Shown here one piece after another: positions 38,975 to 64,000 of a DNA stretch of 64,000 nucleotides (its first letter is position 1; every line of letters begins with the position of its first letter). The position numbers and the translations under genes were made by a program. Source of the DNA: Promethearchaeota archaeon (GTDB taxonomy: Archaea > Asgardarchaeota > Lokiarchaeia > Sigyniarchaeales > SOKP01); NCBI GenBank assembly GCA_019057795.1, contig JAHLWS010000053.1, forward strand, positions 58,261-122,260, written 5' to 3'. The notes beneath the pieces are model-generated. The model searched no databases and was not told the DNA's origin. It worked only from the letters and a program-made list of their open reading frames with translations.

Positions 38975-39084
38975 TGCTTCTGCCGGGATTTGAACCCGGG
39001 TCACGAGGGTGAGAGCCTCGCATGCTTAATCCTTTTTTCTGTATTAAGAAATCAGTAAGTTTGACCGGACTACACTACAGAAGC
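38975..39084 (-). tRNA. tRNA-Glu(CTC) with a 35-nt intron at 21/22 (39026-39060)
   Basis: GCTTCTG/CAGAAGC acceptor; CGAGG-CT CTC AC-CCTCG anticodon arm; BHB GGTC-AA|A ... GATT-AA|G. Confidence 0.9.
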
Positions 39085-46777: not shown

Positions 46778-46879
46778 GGGCCTGTAGATCAGTAGCAGAT
46801 CGCTTGACACATAATTAGCAATTAGCTTGATGCGAGATTTGCACTCAAGAGGTCACGGGTTCAATTCCCGTCAGGTCCA
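46778..46879 (+). tRNA. tRNA-Ala(TGC) with a 30-nt intron at 32/33 (46809-46838)
   Basis: GGGCCTG/CAGGTCC acceptor with G3:U70; BHB CTTG-AC|A ... CGAG-AT|T; spliced arm CTTGA-CT TGC AC-TCAAG. Confidence 0.9.
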
Positions 46880-57729: not shown

Positions 57730-57864
57730 GCTTCTGTAGTGTAGTTCGGCCAATCTTTTCTCAAACCTCTAGGAAAGGGCTTGGCATGCTAGGCTTTCAC
57801 CCTGGTGACAATACGGAACATGTCGAACCGTATCATTAACCGGGTTCGAATCCCGGCAGAAGCA
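57730..57864 (+). tRNA. tRNA-Glu(TTC) with two introns: 21/22 (57754-57783) and 48/49 (57810-57839)
   Basis: BHB1 GGCC-AA|T...GGCT-TG|G; BHB2 GGTG-AC|A-ATACGG...CCGTAT-CATT-AA|C. The spliced product closely matches the tRNA-Glu(CTC) in this window. Confidence 0.9.
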
Positions 57865-57896
57865 TTATATATAAATAGCATAGGAATTGAAAAGTA

Positions 57897-58111
57897 GCCT
57901 CGATAGCTCAGTTAGAATTGGAAAGAGCACCGTTTCGGTGTGTTTGACTAAGTAGAACAATGTAAAATTGTTGCCTACAGCACCCGGCTTTTTTTAGCCA
58001 TTGTGGGTTCATATGATGGCGGGATTTACCACAAAACCGGAAGTTAACCGGGCGGTCGCATGTTCGATCCATAAAACTCTTGAATTCCAAGGTTTGGAAA
58101 AGCTCGGGGCG
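57897..58111 (+). tRNA. tRNA-Asn(GTT) with four introns (18/19, 22/23, 33/34, 63/64)
   Basis: Exons 57897-57915, 57952-57955, 57979-57989, 58043-58072 and 58102-58111 join into a canonical 74-nt cloverleaf; each junction has BHB/BHL geometry. Confidence 0.8.
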
Positions 58112-58127: not shown

Positions 58128-60308
58128 TTACTTACATTTTATTTTTTTGATTTTTTGAAGCTCTTGGAGCCCTTTTTCACTTAAGATGATGTGCCTATCG
58201 TTATTTTCACTTGAGATGATAACAAGTTCTTTTTTAACGAGATTTACTAGATTTTTTCTAACATTTCGCGTAATCACTCCGGCGCTGTCGGCTATATCTT
58301 TTGTTCGTATTATTGTTTTATGGTGAGTTAACTTTGCGATATGTACGAGATATTTCATCCACGCTTCTCCATATCCATATTCACTATTTTGGAGCTTTTC
58401 CAAATCCTTATTATTTAAAATTTTGATTGAATTTCTATTATTATCATTATCAAAATTCAACTTGATAGGATCCTTTTCAAATTTTATATATTGGCCTACA
58501 TCCTTTTGGTGGATAATAGTATTAGTAATTTTGCTTTCCTCTTTAGGAGCTTTCATACTACTTATTTTATTTTTTTGATTAATTTTTGGTTTTATCGTAA
58601 GTTCTCTATCAATATCTTTTGGAAATTTGAAATTACGAACATTTTTTTCTAGTATGTTAAAATAGGTTTTAACCTGCCCCCAATGTTCTGAACTGATAAT
58701 TTCTTCATGTTGCGTTTTAAAGTTAGTGGAGTGAATCATTTGATGACAATTACTACATAAGCTTACGCAATTTTTTTTTATTAGTTCATTTTTAATTTGG
58801 TTTAGTTCATAACTTTGGATTTTTGACCACAATCTCCATTTATCATCGTTTACATCCCTATGATGAAATTGTATAGTGGGTAAATTATTCTGAGTTGTAA
58901 TTTGTTCACATCCTACACATTTTCCTCCATATAATTTGTTGACTATGGTAAATTTTTTTATTTGGCGGACCACATTTTGGAGTTCAGCGATTTTAATCGG
59001 TTCAGATAAATTATTTCTTATATCTTCTCTGATTTCCTTAGTAGTCGCATTGAGGTTAAAATTTGTGCTCTTTATTATATTTCCAAAGTTTTTATAAGTT
59101 TTTGTTCTTTGTTTGGTGTGACAATTTCTGCAGAGAATCTTTACTTTTTCCTTTTCTAGAATCTCTTTTGTTCTTTCCCAATTTTTATACATCCTTTCGT
59201 GCCATGAAGTCTTTTTTATAGATGGGTCAGTATGGTGAAATTCAAGAGCAGGGAGTTTTTCAGGGCCAGTATTACAATCTGGGCATTTCGCACCGAATTT
59301 TCCGTTGTTTAAATTTTCCATAACTTTAACTTTATTTTTGAGCGCAAAGATTTGTTTTTGTTCGCCGTCACATTTCTTACAAGTGCTTTTAGGGTATAAG
59401 ATCTCATTTTTCCGACGGAAAGTAAAGTTAGCGTAGGTTTTAATTTCATGACATCTTCCGCATTCCTTACTTTTGCCGTCAAAATATAGCTTTTTTAACG
59501 ATAAATCTGGTTTTATTGGTATTTGTAATAATTTTCGCCATCTAGATATTGTTCCTTGGTCAACACCACATATTTTCCCAAGTTTTGTACCATTTAGGTT
59601 CCAAGTTGGGTTATGATATACCGTTTGAAACCATGTTTTATGTCGATACAGCGGATTTTGTCTGGAAGGGTCTTTTGTTGGATCTAAAGCGATTTTGTTA
59701 TGCTTAACATATCTATTAGGCTTGTTGGTTATGTTCCAATTTTCTGCGGTACTTTTCCAATCGAGCTTTTTTATTTCTTCTTTAATTTTTTCAAGGTTAA
59801 ATGTGTCGTTTTTTATATTTTGATTAGAGTGCGTATGATCTCTGTTAAGGTTATTAACATCGAAGTTCTTGTTGTCTTTGGCTTCAATTTTAGGTAAAGC
59901 TATTTTGTTTTTTGTTATTTGTGAGGCGTCCAGCTTACTCGGTTCAATTTTATTTTTAGATTTCTCGGGTGTAAATCGTTGAGGTTGGATTCTATGTTTT
60001 GGTTCTTTCTGTATATCCATCTGTCGGAGTTTAATTTTATTTCTGGACGGAGTTAGAGGGTTAGATTTTTGATGTTGGATTTTATGTCTTGGCTCTTTCT
60101 TTGGATCTATCTTTCGGGGTTCAATTTTGTTCTTCGGTTTGTCTTTCGGCTTCTGGCTCGAGCCCTCGATTTTTTTATCCTTATAGTCGTTTTTTTTATT
60201 TTTTGGTTTGTCGTCTGGTTTCGAAGAGATTTTACCCTTTTCGGCTTTCTCGGTATTAGGTTTTTCGTATGATGTTTCAGGTTCCGACTTGGGTGAGTCG
60301 AGGTCCAT
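58128..60308 (-). CDS. multidomain protein: low-complexity N-terminus, HTH, Zn finger, two HNH-like modules and a C-terminal wHTH
   Basis: C-x2-C...LEFHH-x-D...LCRNCH and C-x2-C...IQFHH-x-D...LCSNCH; LGKICGVDQGTISRW; TKDIADSAGV. Confidence 0.75.
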   Translation of the reverse strand: MDLDSPKSEPETSYEKPNTEKAEKGKISSKPDDKPKNKKNDYKDKKIEGSSQKPKDKPKNKIEPRKIDPKKEPRHKIQHQKSNPLTPSRNKIKLRQMDIQKEPKHRIQPQRFTPEKSKNKIEPSKLDASQITKNKIALPKIEAKDNKNFDVNNLNRDHTHSNQNIKNDTFNLEKIKEEIKKLDWKSTAENWNITNKPNRYVKHNKIALDPTKDPSRQNPLYRHKTWFQTVYHNPTWNLNGTKLGKICGVDQGTISRWRKLLQIPIKPDLSLKKLYFDGKSKECGRCHEIKTYANFTFRRKNEILYPKSTCKKCDGEQKQIFALKNKVKVMENLNNGKFGAKCPDCNTGPEKLPALEFHHTDPSIKKTSWHERMYKNWERTKEILEKEKVKILCRNCHTKQRTKTYKNFGNIIKSTNFNLNATTKEIREDIRNNLSEPIKIAELQNVVRQIKKFTIVNKLYGGKCVGCEQITTQNNLPTIQFHHRDVNDDKWRLWSKIQSYELNQIKNELIKKNCVSLCSNCHQMIHSTNFKTQHEEIISSEHWGQVKTYFNILEKNVRNFKFPKDIDRELTIKPKINQKNKISSMKAPKEESKITNTIIHQKDVGQYIKFEKDPIKLNFDNDNNRNSIKILNNKDLEKLQNSEYGYGEAWMKYLVHIAKLTHHKTIIRTKDIADSAGVITRNVRKNLVNLVKKELVIISSENNDRHIILSEKGLQELQKIKKIKCK

Positions 60309-62362
60309 TAGTAACCACCCCAGGCTTCAGGTTCAACATCTAAAGTTTTAATTATATATTCTTCTGCGGAAGCCCCGTTAAAAACCAAGGCATTTCGCGG
60401 TTCTTGGTTTTTTAGATAGCTAAGTTCTTTATTATCTAGTGTAAAGTATTTTCCACATTCAAGGTCGAGTCTGAACACGATTTTCAAGCTTGGAGATTTT
60501 GTTACGCACCGGAACAGGGATGAGGGTTCTTGGTCGATAATAAGAAATCCGAGGCCTCTGCTGCGGTATTCTTCGAGTAGCATTTTAAACACATCTTCGA
60601 GTCGCTCTTTGGCGATGACATTGTCGTCATATGGGTTATTAGAGAGAGCTTTTGCGAGGATTGCATCTGGTTCATCAATGACGATGAGATTGTTGAGTTG
60701 ATTAGATTCCAAGGAAGATGTAAGCGTTATAATCATTTGAAATAGCGCGTTTGTTAAAATGCGTTGCGTCCATATGCTGCATTCAGTTAAGTCGAAGTAG
60801 AAATTTTTACCGTTCCTCCATTCAGTAAACCAACGGGGAGTTTCGGCCGTTAAACACAGGGTTTTTTCGATAATTGGGCTGCTCAACCTCTCGAGCACTT
60901 TATTTGAGATTTCGCTTGTAATGTTGGTATGAAATTTCTCATGGTATCCTTGTTTAGGGTTGTCAAGGTAATCTAAAGTTTTTTCGAAGAGAATCCGAGG
61001 GTAATTAGGTAAATTCTTGCCTTTATCCTGCTCCATCATTACATTTTTAAGAACTGTGGTTGTGGTTCCTTTTAAGCCGAGGGAAGCTGTAAGATACATA
61101 GCGGTTTTTTGTACGTATTTATCCAAGTCTGTAGTATCAGAATTAGGTTTTACGAAATAAGGAATCTTTAAATCGTCGTCTCCATATGTTAGAATTTCAT
61201 CTGAGTGAAAGAATCGTTCTTGGTTTTTTTTGGAGAGTCCTATTGTTAAAATACCGACGTGAGGTGCTTTAGTGGCAATTTCTTGAACGATTCTACTAGC
61301 ACAGTAAGTTTTCCCAGAACCAGTGGAGCCGACAATGATTCCACTTAGAGCCAAATCGTTAATTCGAATATAGGCGTTAGATCCTGAGAGAACTCCTTGT
61401 CGGAACATTTTACCAAACCAAATGTAATTTTTATTATCCTCAGTTATAGGTAAATCAACAATTTTTTCGTTCTCAAGAATATAAGGCTGTGGAAGTCCTG
61501 AATGGCGAGGGAAGTTAAAATCAACGCTTTTAGGTGAGATAAAGTGAGGTACTTCATGTTCGGGTATGGTTTCTTGAAGTAAATAATACCCCCTTCCCGT
61601 TTGGATATTATCGGTATTTTTCCAAAAGCAATTTCCTACAAGAATTTTTTTCCAAGTGTCCGGAAATGTATTTGCTATGCGAGCTTTCTCCATTTTGATG
61701 TTATAAGTGCTTTTCGCCAAGAATTCTAAATCCGATTTAAGCATAAGTCTTTGGAAATCAGTCGTTTTACGATTATTATGCGTAATTCTGATGAAAATCT
61801 TGACCTTAAATTCTTTATGGGCGGTAGAATCCTTTAAATAAAAACCGCCCCTAGAATCTATAGCATCGTCTTTTTGCCAAACAAGATAAAATCGGAGGTT
61901 CCTGTGCGAATCTTGGTCATTTCTGCTGCTATGAATGAAATTTTTTATCAGAGAGATTTTATCTGGATTATGGATTTTTGGGAGGCAAAGTTCATAGATT
62001 GTCTTTTTTTCTTCGAACATAAAAGGATAAATTGGAACTATCTTTACTTTCCCGTCCAATCCAGGAAAAACTCTCTTAAGGATGTTCAAAAGCCTATAAC
62101 CTTTTATATGGGCTTCTTCGAGAGTTAAAGTGTTTATAAAAAATTCCCAACCAATTTCATTGCCGATAGAGCTAAGTTCCAATCCGTAAACTGTTTGGTC
62201 TTGGAAATAATTTCGCATCCAAGTTTTTCCAATTTCGTATCTTTCTTTTAAACCATAACCAAAAATAGTTTCTTTTTCTTGTTTTAATGGGCCTTGTGTG
62301 ATTTTAATTTTTACCAGCCATATTTCGGCTTCCAATTCCATAAGATTCAATCCTTTCCTCAT
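60308..62362 (-). CDS. HerA/VirB4-like (DUF87) ATPase
   Basis: GSTGSGKT, VIDEP, EYRSRG, IDQEPS and KIVFRL motifs. Confidence 0.8.
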   Translation of the reverse strand: MRKGLNLMELEAEIWLVKIKITQGPLKQEKETIFGYGLKERYEIGKTWMRNYFQDQTVYGLELSSIGNEIGWEFFINTLTLEEAHIKGYRLLNILKRVFPGLDGKVKIVPIYPFMFEEKKTIYELCLPKIHNPDKISLIKNFIHSSRNDQDSHRNLRFYLVWQKDDAIDSRGGFYLKDSTAHKEFKVKIFIRITHNNRKTTDFQRLMLKSDLEFLAKSTYNIKMEKARIANTFPDTWKKILVGNCFWKNTDNIQTGRGYYLLQETIPEHEVPHFISPKSVDFNFPRHSGLPQPYILENEKIVDLPITEDNKNYIWFGKMFRQGVLSGSNAYIRINDLALSGIIVGSTGSGKTYCASRIVQEIATKAPHVGILTIGLSKKNQERFFHSDEILTYGDDDLKIPYFVKPNSDTTDLDKYVQKTAMYLTASLGLKGTTTTVLKNVMMEQDKGKNLPNYPRILFEKTLDYLDNPKQGYHEKFHTNITSEISNKVLERLSSPIIEKTLCLTAETPRWFTEWRNGKNFYFDLTECSIWTQRILTNALFQMIITLTSSLESNQLNNLIVIDEPDAILAKALSNNPYDDNVIAKERLEDVFKMLLEEYRSRGLGFLIIDQEPSSLFRCVTKSPSLKIVFRLDLECGKYFTLDNKELSYLKNQEPRNALVFNGASAEEYIIKTLDVEPEAWGGY

Positions 62363-62369
62363 TTTAACC

Positions 62370-63128
62370 TTACCACTGAGCTTCTCTCCTATGTTTTGCG
62401 GGTTTAACGCGTCGTCGAGTTAACTTTTTTATATTCACTCTTTCAGAACCAGTTGAACTTCTCTTGCCTAAAACTTGTTGAATAAATGCCCTTAATCCTA
62501 TAAATCCATATTTATATACATGATACCCTAAGAAAATTAAAAAATATGTCAGAATTTCGTGAAAAACTTCAAACTGAAAATTTGTGACACCAAACCAAAC
62601 TGTATATATTGATAATAACAATAAGCAAATCTGATAGAGCGAATATCTCCAATCAAATTGGAAGGAACTAAAAATTGCAAATAAATCAGCTAATGAAGGC
62701 GACGCACTTAACACCAATGACACCATAATAAAAATATACAGATAGAAAATTACTACTTCCAAGCTTGGATTCTTTAATTGCTCCCATAAAAAGAAAAAGA
62801 GCCAGAACGAAAGATAAAGGGGTGCAAATCCGATTAATAACACTTGTAAAAAGGTTAATTTATTAAACTCTTTTAATTCAATTCTTCCACCATACTTCAG
62901 ACCAAATTTTGACTCGTTATCAGAATGCTCTAGTATTTTCATGGTTCGGATTTGAGTATCAGTCAATAGACACATTAAGATGTGGCAAAGTTCGTGTATT
63001 AATATACTTAAAACTGCTAAAACTTGAAAAAATTTGTTTAACGGCTCAGGTGCTACCACTAAAAGAACATATGACATTACCACTGAAAATACCGCAAAAC
63101 CTACCATAAATATGATTTCTTCGAACAT
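62370..63128 (-). CDS. M50-like membrane zinc metalloprotease
   Basis: HELCH within a TM context; FAPL and PS-x2-D motifs. Confidence 0.75.
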   Translation of the reverse strand: MFEEIIFMVGFAVFSVVMSYVLLVVAPEPLNKFFQVLAVLSILIHELCHILMCLLTDTQIRTMKILEHSDNESKFGLKYGGRIELKEFNKLTFLQVLLIGFAPLYLSFWLFFFLWEQLKNPSLEVVIFYLYIFIMVSLVLSASPSLADLFAIFSSFQFDWRYSLYQICLLLLSIYTVWFGVTNFQFEVFHEILTYFLIFLGYHVYKYGFIGLRAFIQQVLGKRSSTGSERVNIKKLTRRRVKPAKHRREAQW

Positions 63129-63246
63129 TAGTCGCTACTATTATAATTTTTTATTTATTTGGTAACTTTATAAATTCGTTTTATTTAAAAGGAAAAATAT
63201 CGTTTGAACTATAGAACTATAATTGATGGTATTCGTCTCGTATTCA

Positions 63247-64000
63247 TTATAAACCCTTGAATAGCCCAATTTCTTCTAAAAATTCAACCTTATTTTTAAA
63301 CCCTTTTTCTTTGTTTTTAATGCCGTGGAGATCGAACAATTTCCTTTGAATGGATTTTTGAAGCGTTCCCTGACTAATACGTAAAAACTCACATATGGGA
63401 CCCAGGGCGATATCTTCACGTTTAGAGCGTATTTTTGCTATTCCTATAACTAAACCGGCAATAACATCGTCTTTCGAATCTTTTATTAAGCCCCAAAACT
63501 TATCCAATATCTTCTCTGATTGAAAGTATAGGTTCATTCCCAATTTTTTCTCATTAATAACGCCCCCCATTCGATTAAGAATGTATTTTTTCCGATCCCT
63601 GTTTTGGTATTTTGACCAAAAGTCTTTCATGCGGCTTCTGAAAACATTGAATTCTGTGTTTGATAAGTCCGAATTTTCAAGAAGGGTTCCTTGGTCAATA
63701 ACTATATTATTTTTTTTATAGTAAAAATAGATCACGCAAGGGATTAACTTCTCAGGATTCCGAAATTTCTTACTTTTTTTAAAATGAGGGCGAATCTCGT
63801 TATATTTTTTAAGAATTTTCGATATATCCTTATCTGGCCGTCCCAGCTTTTCAAGGAGGGTTTTAGTTTGAATGAACGCAGCTTGCATAGTTTCCTCGGG
63901 ATGAGGAATCATAGAATTTAATTTATTTAAATATGCTATTTTTCCTCTATTGTTAGACCGTTCTCGTTCTCTTTCGTTTCCCATCGTAGTTTTAAGGGTA
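63247..64000 (-). CDS. divergent TFB-like cyclin-fold protein, 5'-truncated by the window edge
   Basis: The frame is open beyond 63984 (TLKTTMGNERER, resembling the TFB linker); two cyclin-like repeats (RNPEKLIPCVIYF; VIAGLVI...ICEFLRISQGTL). Confidence 0.55.
   Translation of the reverse strand, partial: TLKTTMGNERERERSNNRGKIAYLNKLNSMIPHPEETMQAAFIQTKTLLEKLGRPDKDISKILKKYNEIRPHFKKSKKFRNPEKLIPCVIYFYYKKNNIVIDQGTLLENSDLSNTEFNVFRSRMKDFWSKYQNRDRKKYILNRMGGVINEKKLGMNLYFQSEKILDKFWGLIKDSKDDVIAGLVIGIAKIRSKREDIALGPICEFLRISQGTLQKSIQRKLFDLHGIKNKEKGFKNKVEFLEEIGLFKGL

What the first reader, a model, noticed from the sequence alone, without database searches (positions are those of the whole stretch)
57897..58111. 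tRNA-Asn(GUU) gene split by four introns, including a 4-nt exon
Seen: removing 57916-57951, 57956-57978, 57990-58042 and 58073-58101 gives GCCTCGA TA GCTC AGTTAGGTA GAGC A CCCGG CT GTT AA CCGGG CGGTC GCATG TTCGATC CATGC TCGGGGC G, a canonical archaeal tRNA-Asn. Every cut falls after the second base of a 3-nt bulge next to a 4-bp helix: AGTT/GACT, AGGT/GCCT, CCGG/CCGG and ATCC/GGAA (3 of 4 pairs). Established: archaeal EndA cleaves BHB/BHL motifs, and the multi-intron tRNAs I know of (Thermoproteales) carry up to three introns. Inference: four introns, all at non-canonical sites including the T-stem, would be an extreme architecture. Standard tRNA finders would likely miss it and could report the genome as lacking tRNA-Asn.
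Basis: partly seen in the sequence, partly recalled or inferred. Interest (0 to 1): 0.88.

Follow-up and report, generated by a model that had tools for sequence, protein, structure and literature searches.

The report
Four-intron asparagine tRNA, Loki archaeon
The only asparagine tRNA gene found in this Loki-type Asgard archaeon is really cut into five pieces by four small introns, one piece only four bases long; four or five introns per tRNA are already reported in Asgard archaea, so this is a well-supported new example, with hints that such introns shift position and are swapped between species.

Summary
Observation confirmed; the record claim is not. Removing the four inserts gives a 74-nt tRNA-Asn(GUU), 70/74 identical to an intron-less orthologue. 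It is the only Asn(GUU) gene found in a Promethearchaeia (Loki) genome. Two other metagenome contigs carry the whole 215-nt gene with 1-2 differences, which makes misassembly unlikely. The introns sit at 18/19, 22/23, 33/34 and 63/64. Of 77 distinct orthologues, 15 have four occupied sites and 6 have none. The genome encodes two EndA subunits (the catalytic one with the broad-specificity loop) and RtcB. Intron 2's helix is complete only after intron 1 leaves, so intron 1 probably goes first. Four-intron Asgard tRNAs were listed in 2024 (PMC11291895), and up to five inserts per gene in a 2026 preprint. This scan also noted similar genes on other DNA. Added here, all inferred: intron 1 is a relative of the usual 22/23 intron re-sited by 4 nt; near-identical introns cross species lines; non-canonical introns in this genome peak at 29-31 nt. 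No RNA read shows splicing.

The parts
57897..57915 (+). Exon 1 (tRNA positions 1-18)
57916..57951 (+). Intron 1 at 18/19 (36 nt); central helix AGTT/GACT 4/4, no adjacent flanking helix; core hairpin homologous to the 22/23 intron of relatives; contains AGAGCACC, a copy of the spliced D-stem strand
57952..57955 (+). Exon 2, 4-nt micro-exon GTAG (G19-G22)
   Evidence: present in every parsed orthologue; same arrangement in G042 and G008
57956..57978 (+). Intron 2 at 22/23 (23 nt); helix 3/4 before and 4/4 after removal of intron 1; a family seen only in G000, G042, G008 (and L228, L229)
57979..57989 (+). Exon 3 (positions 23-33)
57990..58042 (+). Intron 3 at 33/34 (53 nt); CCGG/CCGG helix plus 4-bp intron helix; longest of 47 orthologous introns (others 22-37 nt)
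57996..58026 (+). Possible nested fifth intron inside intron 3 (31 nt, 9-bp hairpin, weak TTTT/GGGA helix); unproven, about 15%
58043..58072 (+). Exon 4 (positions 34-63, anticodon GTT at 58043-58045)
58073..58101 (+). Intron 4 at 63/64 in the T-stem (29 nt); ATCC/GGAA 3/4 plus 5-bp intron helix; identical in G050 and one G009 copy
58102..58111 (+). Exon 5 (positions 64-73, discriminator G73; CCA not encoded; T-rich run follows)
57730..57864 (+). Neighbouring tRNA-Glu(UUC) with two 30-nt introns (57754-57783, 57810-57839), 32 nt upstream; possibly the same transcript
   Evidence: co-transcription is inference

Best explanation
A functional, single-copy tRNA-Asn(GUU) gene of a Promethearchaeia (Lokiarchaeia) archaeon, interrupted at 18/19, 22/23, 33/34 and 63/64. 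Shown from sequence: the boundaries, the product, that no second copy was found, and the presence of the enzymes. Inferred: the precursor is cut by the (alpha-beta)2 EndA at one near-canonical and three relaxed bulge-helix-bulge motifs, and RtcB joins the exons after each pair of cuts. Intron 1 is removed before intron 2, because the 3' bulge of intron 1 and the helix of intron 2 use the same bases and intron 2's helix is completed only by the new junction. Introns 3 and 4 can go independently. CCA is added afterwards.
For: Product accepted by ARAGORN and folds as a cloverleaf. Intron-less orthologue L162 differs at 4 of 74 positions, forming two compensatory acceptor pairs. 77 distinct orthologous genes use the same five sites. 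Central helices co-vary with the exon: every gene with C16 has G opposite (6 of 6); T28 faces A in G042, G008, G050; G59 faces C in G047, G054; 46 of 47 introns at 33/34 keep 4/4 pairs. No second Asn(GUU) in a whole-genome scan or a census of about 44 tRNA genes. Whole gene with 2 and 1 differences in two other metagenome contigs. EndA alpha matches PDB 3p1z at E 4e-34, with the loop aligned to YGQPLDVEKPR and the catalytic His kept; a second subunit lacks that His; RtcB present. The cost of forming intron 2's motif falls from 5.7-6.6 to 1.9-2.5 kcal/mol once intron 1 is gone; in G042 and G008 the same helix goes from 2/4 to 3/4.
Against: No spliced RNA was seen; none of the Asgard inserts in the 2026 census has been shown spliced in a cell. 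Three of four motifs are relaxed and each costs 2-4 kcal/mol to form. The census did not find Phe, His, Arg(CCG) or Ser(CGA) genes, so a missing tRNA gene in this 87-contig assembly cannot be excluded. The order argument rests on pairing and folding energies only.
Confidence: 0.93

Rival explanations
1. Assembly chimera: halves of different strains joined at the conserved 30-nt exon 4.
For: Exon 4 is nearly identical across species, and contigs of independent runs break inside it. The genome is a draft with 7.5% contamination.
Against: Contigs Ga0209986_10002747 and Ga0114923_10000477, with different flanks, carry all four introns in one piece.
Confidence: 0.02
2. Pseudogene or inefficiently spliced copy, with the working tRNA-Asn in an unassembled part of the genome.
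For: Several tRNA types are missing from the assembly; motifs are relaxed.
Against: Exons have no defects; helices co-vary; relatives have their Asn gene at this same locus after tRNA-Glu; the gene is kept at 99% in L228 and L229 while an adjacent duplicate Glu copy has decayed.
Confidence: 0.03
3. Alternative cuts give other products: introns 1 and 2 leave together with the 4-nt exon (70-nt tRNA, 5-nt D-loop), or a 37/38 cut in intron 3 gives a UUU anticodon.
For: Both alternatives can form 3 of 4 central pairs.
Against: They cost 9.8 and 8.7 kcal/mol against 4.1 and 3.1 for the proposed cuts. The skip loses the conserved GG of the D-loop. The Lys form has U37, is not conserved in orthologues, and a separate Lys(UUU) gene exists.
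Confidence: 0.02
4. The gene has five introns: a 31-nt intron is nested in intron 3 and is removed first.
For: Intron 3 is 16 nt longer than any orthologue. The inner motif has 4/4 pairs and a 9-bp stem (0.5% of shuffles; 3% given the hairpin). The length fits the 29-31 nt class. The two variant positions in L228 and L229 keep the hairpin. Eight relatives have a 30+30 nested intron at 63/64.
Against: Three of four pairs are G-U and the motif costs 7.2 kcal/mol. The outer motif forms without removing it. The motif GGATTTACCA, contiguous in sister species' simple introns, spans the proposed 3' cut. No allele lacking the 31 nt was found.
Confidence: 0.15

Closest known systems
Four- and five-intron tRNA genes of Asgard archaea (Valentin-Alvarado 2024, PMC11291895, Supp. 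Data 4; Goswami 2026, bioRxiv 10.64898/2026.10.13.758758)
   Same: Same phylum, same number of introns, non-canonical D-arm and T-arm sites, missed by standard finders, two EndA paralogues.
   Different: Those focus on Atabeyarchaeia and Jordiarchaeia/Freyarchaeia; the preprint text does not name Loki or Promethearchaeia. Their Asn genes have two introns. In this genome most tRNAs have 0-2 introns and this is the only four-intron gene found. Re-siting of an intron and exchange between species were not among the routes the preprint tested.
Nested or stepwise multiple-intron pre-tRNAs of Thermoproteales (Sugahara 2007; Tocchini-Valentini 2009, as cited in PMC3978253)
   Same: The last intron forms its motif only after another is removed.
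   Different: Up to three introns per gene were reported there (PMC3239211). Thermoproteales introns recur between tRNA types; here the best cross-type identity (0.59) equals the shuffled maximum.
Cyanidioschyzon merolae multi-intron tRNAs (Soma 2013, PMC3728597)
   Same: Ordered BHB processing, shown there by RT-PCR.
   Different: Eukaryote, at most three introns, motifs fold independently.
Intron heterogeneity at tRNA-Thr of Caldiarchaeum subterraneum (Sugahara 2012, PMC3293823)
   Same: Intron content differs among close relatives; recombination proposed.
   Different: There a mobile element left a tRNA fragment; no second copy of the Asn 3' end was found in this assembly.

Membership tests
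Archaeal tRNA-Asn(GUU) gene | Spliced sequence folds as a cloverleaf with GUU anticodon, U33, purine 37 | tested here: met
Archaeal tRNA-Asn(GUU) gene | Homology to uninterrupted tRNA-Asn of relatives | tested here: met
   70/74 to L111 and L162, 69/74 to L117 and L165
Archaeal tRNA-Asn(GUU) gene | Mature tRNA made and aminoacylated | not testable with these tools
   only assembled contigs of RNA runs were available
BHB/BHL intron removed by EndA | 4-bp central helix with cuts two bases into each bulge | tested here: met
   4/4, 4/4 after intron 1, 4/4, 3/4; co-variation in orthologues
BHB/BHL intron removed by EndA | Strict hBHBh' motif with both flanking helices | tested here: not met
   none has both flanks; only relaxed HBh' forms, which (alpha-beta)2 enzymes accept
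BHB/BHL intron removed by EndA | Host encodes a broad-specificity EndA and a ligase | tested here: met
   catalytic subunit with loop Lys and His, second subunit, RtcB
BHB/BHL intron removed by EndA | Cleavage and ligation shown | not testable with these tools
   no assay or junction read
Stepwise (nested-type) multiple-intron pre-tRNA | One motif is complete only after another intron is removed | tested here: met
   intron 2: 3/4 to 4/4 pairs, 5.7 to 1.9 kcal/mol; in silico only
Thermoproteales-type intron transposition | Similar introns in different tRNA types of one genome | tested here: not met
   best cross-type identity 0.59, shuffled maximum 0.59
Integration site of a mobile element (attB) | Duplicate of the tRNA 3' end at the far side of an island | tested here: inconclusive
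   variable island downstream, no duplicate found, but the contig ends 5.9 kb later

The most novel reading that the evidence does not exclude
The gene records how Loki tRNA introns accumulate. An existing 22/23 intron was re-sited 4 nt upstream to 18/19, a new intron entered the vacated 22/23 site and left the 4-nt exon, and intron-bearing segments of the gene move between species by recombination at the conserved exons. The introns involved mostly belong to a class of about 30 nt. Neither route was tested in the 2026 census, which calls intron arrival the open problem.
Probability: 0.35. Interest if true: 0.65.

Novelty: new member of a known kind. Interest (0 to 1): 0.36.

Why it matters
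As a record it does not matter: four and five introns are already reported in Asgard tRNAs. Practically, finders miss the gene, and ARAGORN with its intron option mislabels a Thr(CGU) gene as Asn. Its value is as a test bed. One locus has 77 natural alleles with 0-4 occupied sites, a predicted obligatory splicing order, one hairpin at two positions 4 nt apart, and alleles that disagree with the species tree. That makes the open question of how archaeal tRNA introns arrive and move testable with population sequencing and a simple EndA assay.

Tried and rejected
RNA evidence: two RNA runs of one sample hold a contig over 57897-58012/58021, unspliced, with the upstream flank of a relative. It may be precursor or DNA; no spliced joint was seen, and contigs cannot show absence. 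Not used as evidence. The joined form of introns 1-3 in two DNA runs is read as intron-less alleles of relatives. Attachment-site copy of the Asn 3' end: none found; no match in viral contigs. Copies of the four introns elsewhere in the genome: only scattered 14-15-mers. Birth of introns by copying the adjacent exon as a general rule: only the 18/19 and 22/23 family starts with an exon copy; the starts of the 33/34, 59/60 and 63/64 introns do not (by inspection). Homology of 59/60 and 63/64 introns: weak (19.4 vs 16.4 shuffled), left open. Shared AUYU(A/C) loop: 6 of 37 stem-closed against 0.5 in shuffles that destroy the hairpins, but plain occurrence not significant (P 0.08); left open. Exon skipping and the Lys(UUU) cut rejected. 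The first automatic parse of orthologues merged micro-exons and was replaced by a fixed-site parser; G012 was reassigned by hand to 18/19. The first whole-genome census timed out. Sugahara 2007 was not held and is cited through reviews. The sigma-70 promoter scan does not apply to archaea. A TATA-like run at 57865-57876 is not conserved in L228 or L229.

Full report
OBSERVATION. They leave exons of 19, 4, 11, 30 and 10 nt and a 74-nt product that ARAGORN calls tRNA-Asn(gtt) and that folds into the cloverleaf. In tRNA numbering the introns lie at 18/19, 22/23, 33/34 and 63/64; none is at 37/38. ARAGORN with and without its intron option and Rfam miss the gene. The splice helices alone are weak evidence, since 279 boundaries with four central pairs can be drawn in the precursor. 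The proof is comparative. A spliced alignment that does not use the motif, run with an intron-less orthologue over the whole genome, gives 92.8 bits here; the next hits are Lys and Ile tRNAs, and the reversed genome reaches 26.9.

ORGANISM AND UNIQUENESS. Genome G042, whose rpoB region is 97% identical to the window's genome, carries the same Asn gene as the record 'Promethearchaeota archaeon Loki_b31'; others of the genus match records named Promethearchaeia. A template-guided census found about 44 tRNA genes with 45 introns: roughly 12 genes with none, 22 with one, 8 with two, Ile(UAU) with three, and this gene with four. No second Asn(GUU) was found. Phe, His, Arg(CCG) and Ser(CGA) were not found either, so the assembly may lack tRNA genes. 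Two other metagenome contigs carry the full 215 nt with 2 and 1 differences inside different flanks.

ORTHOLOGUES. 77 distinct tRNA-Asn genes from the genus and class use five sites: 18/19 (19 genes), 22/23 (33), 33/34 (47), 59/60 (49) and 63/64 (33). Six have no intron, 21 one, 5 two, 30 three and 15 four. L162, intron-less, differs from the spliced product at four positions that form two compensatory acceptor pairs. Intron bases co-vary with exon bases of the central helix at three sites. Eight relatives have a 60-nt insert at 63/64 whose outer helix scores 0/4 until an inner 30 nt with a 4/4 helix is removed; with it L172 has five introns.

MECHANISM. The genome encodes an EndA catalytic subunit closest to PDB 3p1z, with the specificity loop and its lysine aligned and the catalytic histidine kept, a second subunit without that histidine, and RtcB. 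This loop confers tolerance of relaxed motifs and is reported for Asgard (PMC5829648). Intron 3 has a GC-only central helix and a 4-bp intron helix; introns 1, 2 and 4 are relaxed. The last two bases of intron 1 form its 3' bulge and would also be part of intron 2's helix. After intron 1 leaves, the helix becomes AGGT/GCCT and its folding cost drops from about 6 to about 2 kcal/mol. So intron 1 before intron 2 is the likely order. This is inference; no RNA shows it. Skipping the micro-exon or cutting at 37/38 costs more and gives abnormal tRNAs. A nested 31-nt intron inside intron 3 is possible but weak.

HISTORY (inference). (a) Intron 1 is homologous to the common 22/23 intron of relatives: best-hit score 22.5 against 14.0 (sd 0.4) for shuffles, the clearest excess among all site pairs. 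The two never occur in one gene (19 and 30 genes; 7.4 expected together if independent, though kin are not independent). G012 still begins its 18/19 intron with GTAG followed by the 22/23-type hairpin. The simplest reading is one intron re-sited by 4 nt, with an unrelated intron at 22/23 in G000, G042 and G008 creating the micro-exon. The direction is not established. (b) Alleles disagree with the species tree. In rpoB and secY trees G008 groups with G002 and G056 (100/100), apart from G000 and G042, yet shares 91% and 89% identical introns with G042 at 80% rpoB identity. G056 has T-arm introns 90% and 97% identical to G005 (rpoB 77%) but a 33/34 intron only 50% identical, and its flank resembles G002. 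L228 differs from the window at 11% of four-fold sites in the thermosome gene but at 2 of 141 intron bases (P 8e-6 at that rate; 0.035 at the all-site rate). Exchange of gene segments between species fits; slow evolution of some intron families and draft-genome errors are the alternatives. (c) In this genome 24 of 37 non-canonical introns are 29-31 nt against 0 of 8 canonical ones (Fisher P 0.001; some boundaries approximate). No copying between tRNA types was detected.

COMPARISON. Three introns was the stated maximum in 2011. The 2024 Nature Communications supplement lists four-intron tRNAs in Freyarchaeia and Atabeyarchaeia, and the 2026 preprint reports up to five and notes that none has been shown spliced in a cell. 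Stepwise removal is known from Thermoproteales. The preprint tested copying between tRNA types, mobile elements and reverse transcription, not re-siting or exchange between species. Earlier notes of this scan describe three-intron Asn genes, a four-intron His gene and 4-nt micro-exons on other DNA, and about 30-nt BHB-like inserts in protein genes of this genome; these are unchecked leads, not support.

VERDICT. Real and very likely functional; a new member of a known kind, not a record. Interest 0.36. The more novel reading, that the locus shows introns shifting and moving between species, has probability about 0.35 and would merit about 0.65.

Noticed in passing
window 57730-57864 (+): tRNA-Glu(UUC) with two 30-nt introns, both 4/4 helices, 32 nt upstream of the Asn gene; missed by ARAGORN.
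   Followed up: partly
window 38975-39084 (-) and 46778-46879 (+): tRNA-Glu(CUC) with a 35-nt D-arm intron and tRNA-Ala(UGC) with a 30-nt intron, both missed by the default scan.
   Followed up: partly
G000:C52:62412-62480 and 67395-67497 (-): The 3' half of tRNA-Arg(GCG) is repeated about 5 kb away together with its whole 30-nt T-loop intron (2 differences), as expected for the attachment site of an integrated element; a possible carrier of intron-bearing tRNA ends.
   Followed up: partly
L099, L106, L113, L125, L131, L135, L136, L172: 60-nt insert at 63/64 reads as a 30-nt outer intron with a 30-nt inner intron in its 3' bulge; L172 would have five introns.
   Followed up: partly
L228:5455-5510 and L229:1910-1955: The region before tRNA-Glu is duplicated and the second Glu copy has collapsed to a relic of about 45 nt just before the Asn gene.
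   Followed up: partly
G000:C73:95215-95394 (-): [quoted passage not shown]
   Followed up: partly
G000:C70:5455-5567 (+): tRNA-Ser(GCU) appears to carry a 31-nt intron in the 5' acceptor strand (about 6/7).
   Followed up: no
G000:C73:91757-91909 (+): tRNA-Sec(UCA) with two introns (33 and 30 nt).
   Followed up: no
window 58128-63984 (-): Variable island after the tRNA: 726-aa protein with repeated Cys/His motifs and no Pfam hit, weak HerA-like ATPase, weak M50 peptidase-like gene; absent at this place in several close relatives, parts repeated on C84 and C82.
   Followed up: partly
G009:C148 and G009:C430: Genome G009 holds two tRNA-Asn copies with the same 5' half and different T-arm introns; strain mix or contamination.
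   Followed up: no
L148:4090-4200: A tRNA-Asn 5' part runs into a tRNA-Leu 5' part on a short contig; probably an assembly artefact.
   Followed up: no
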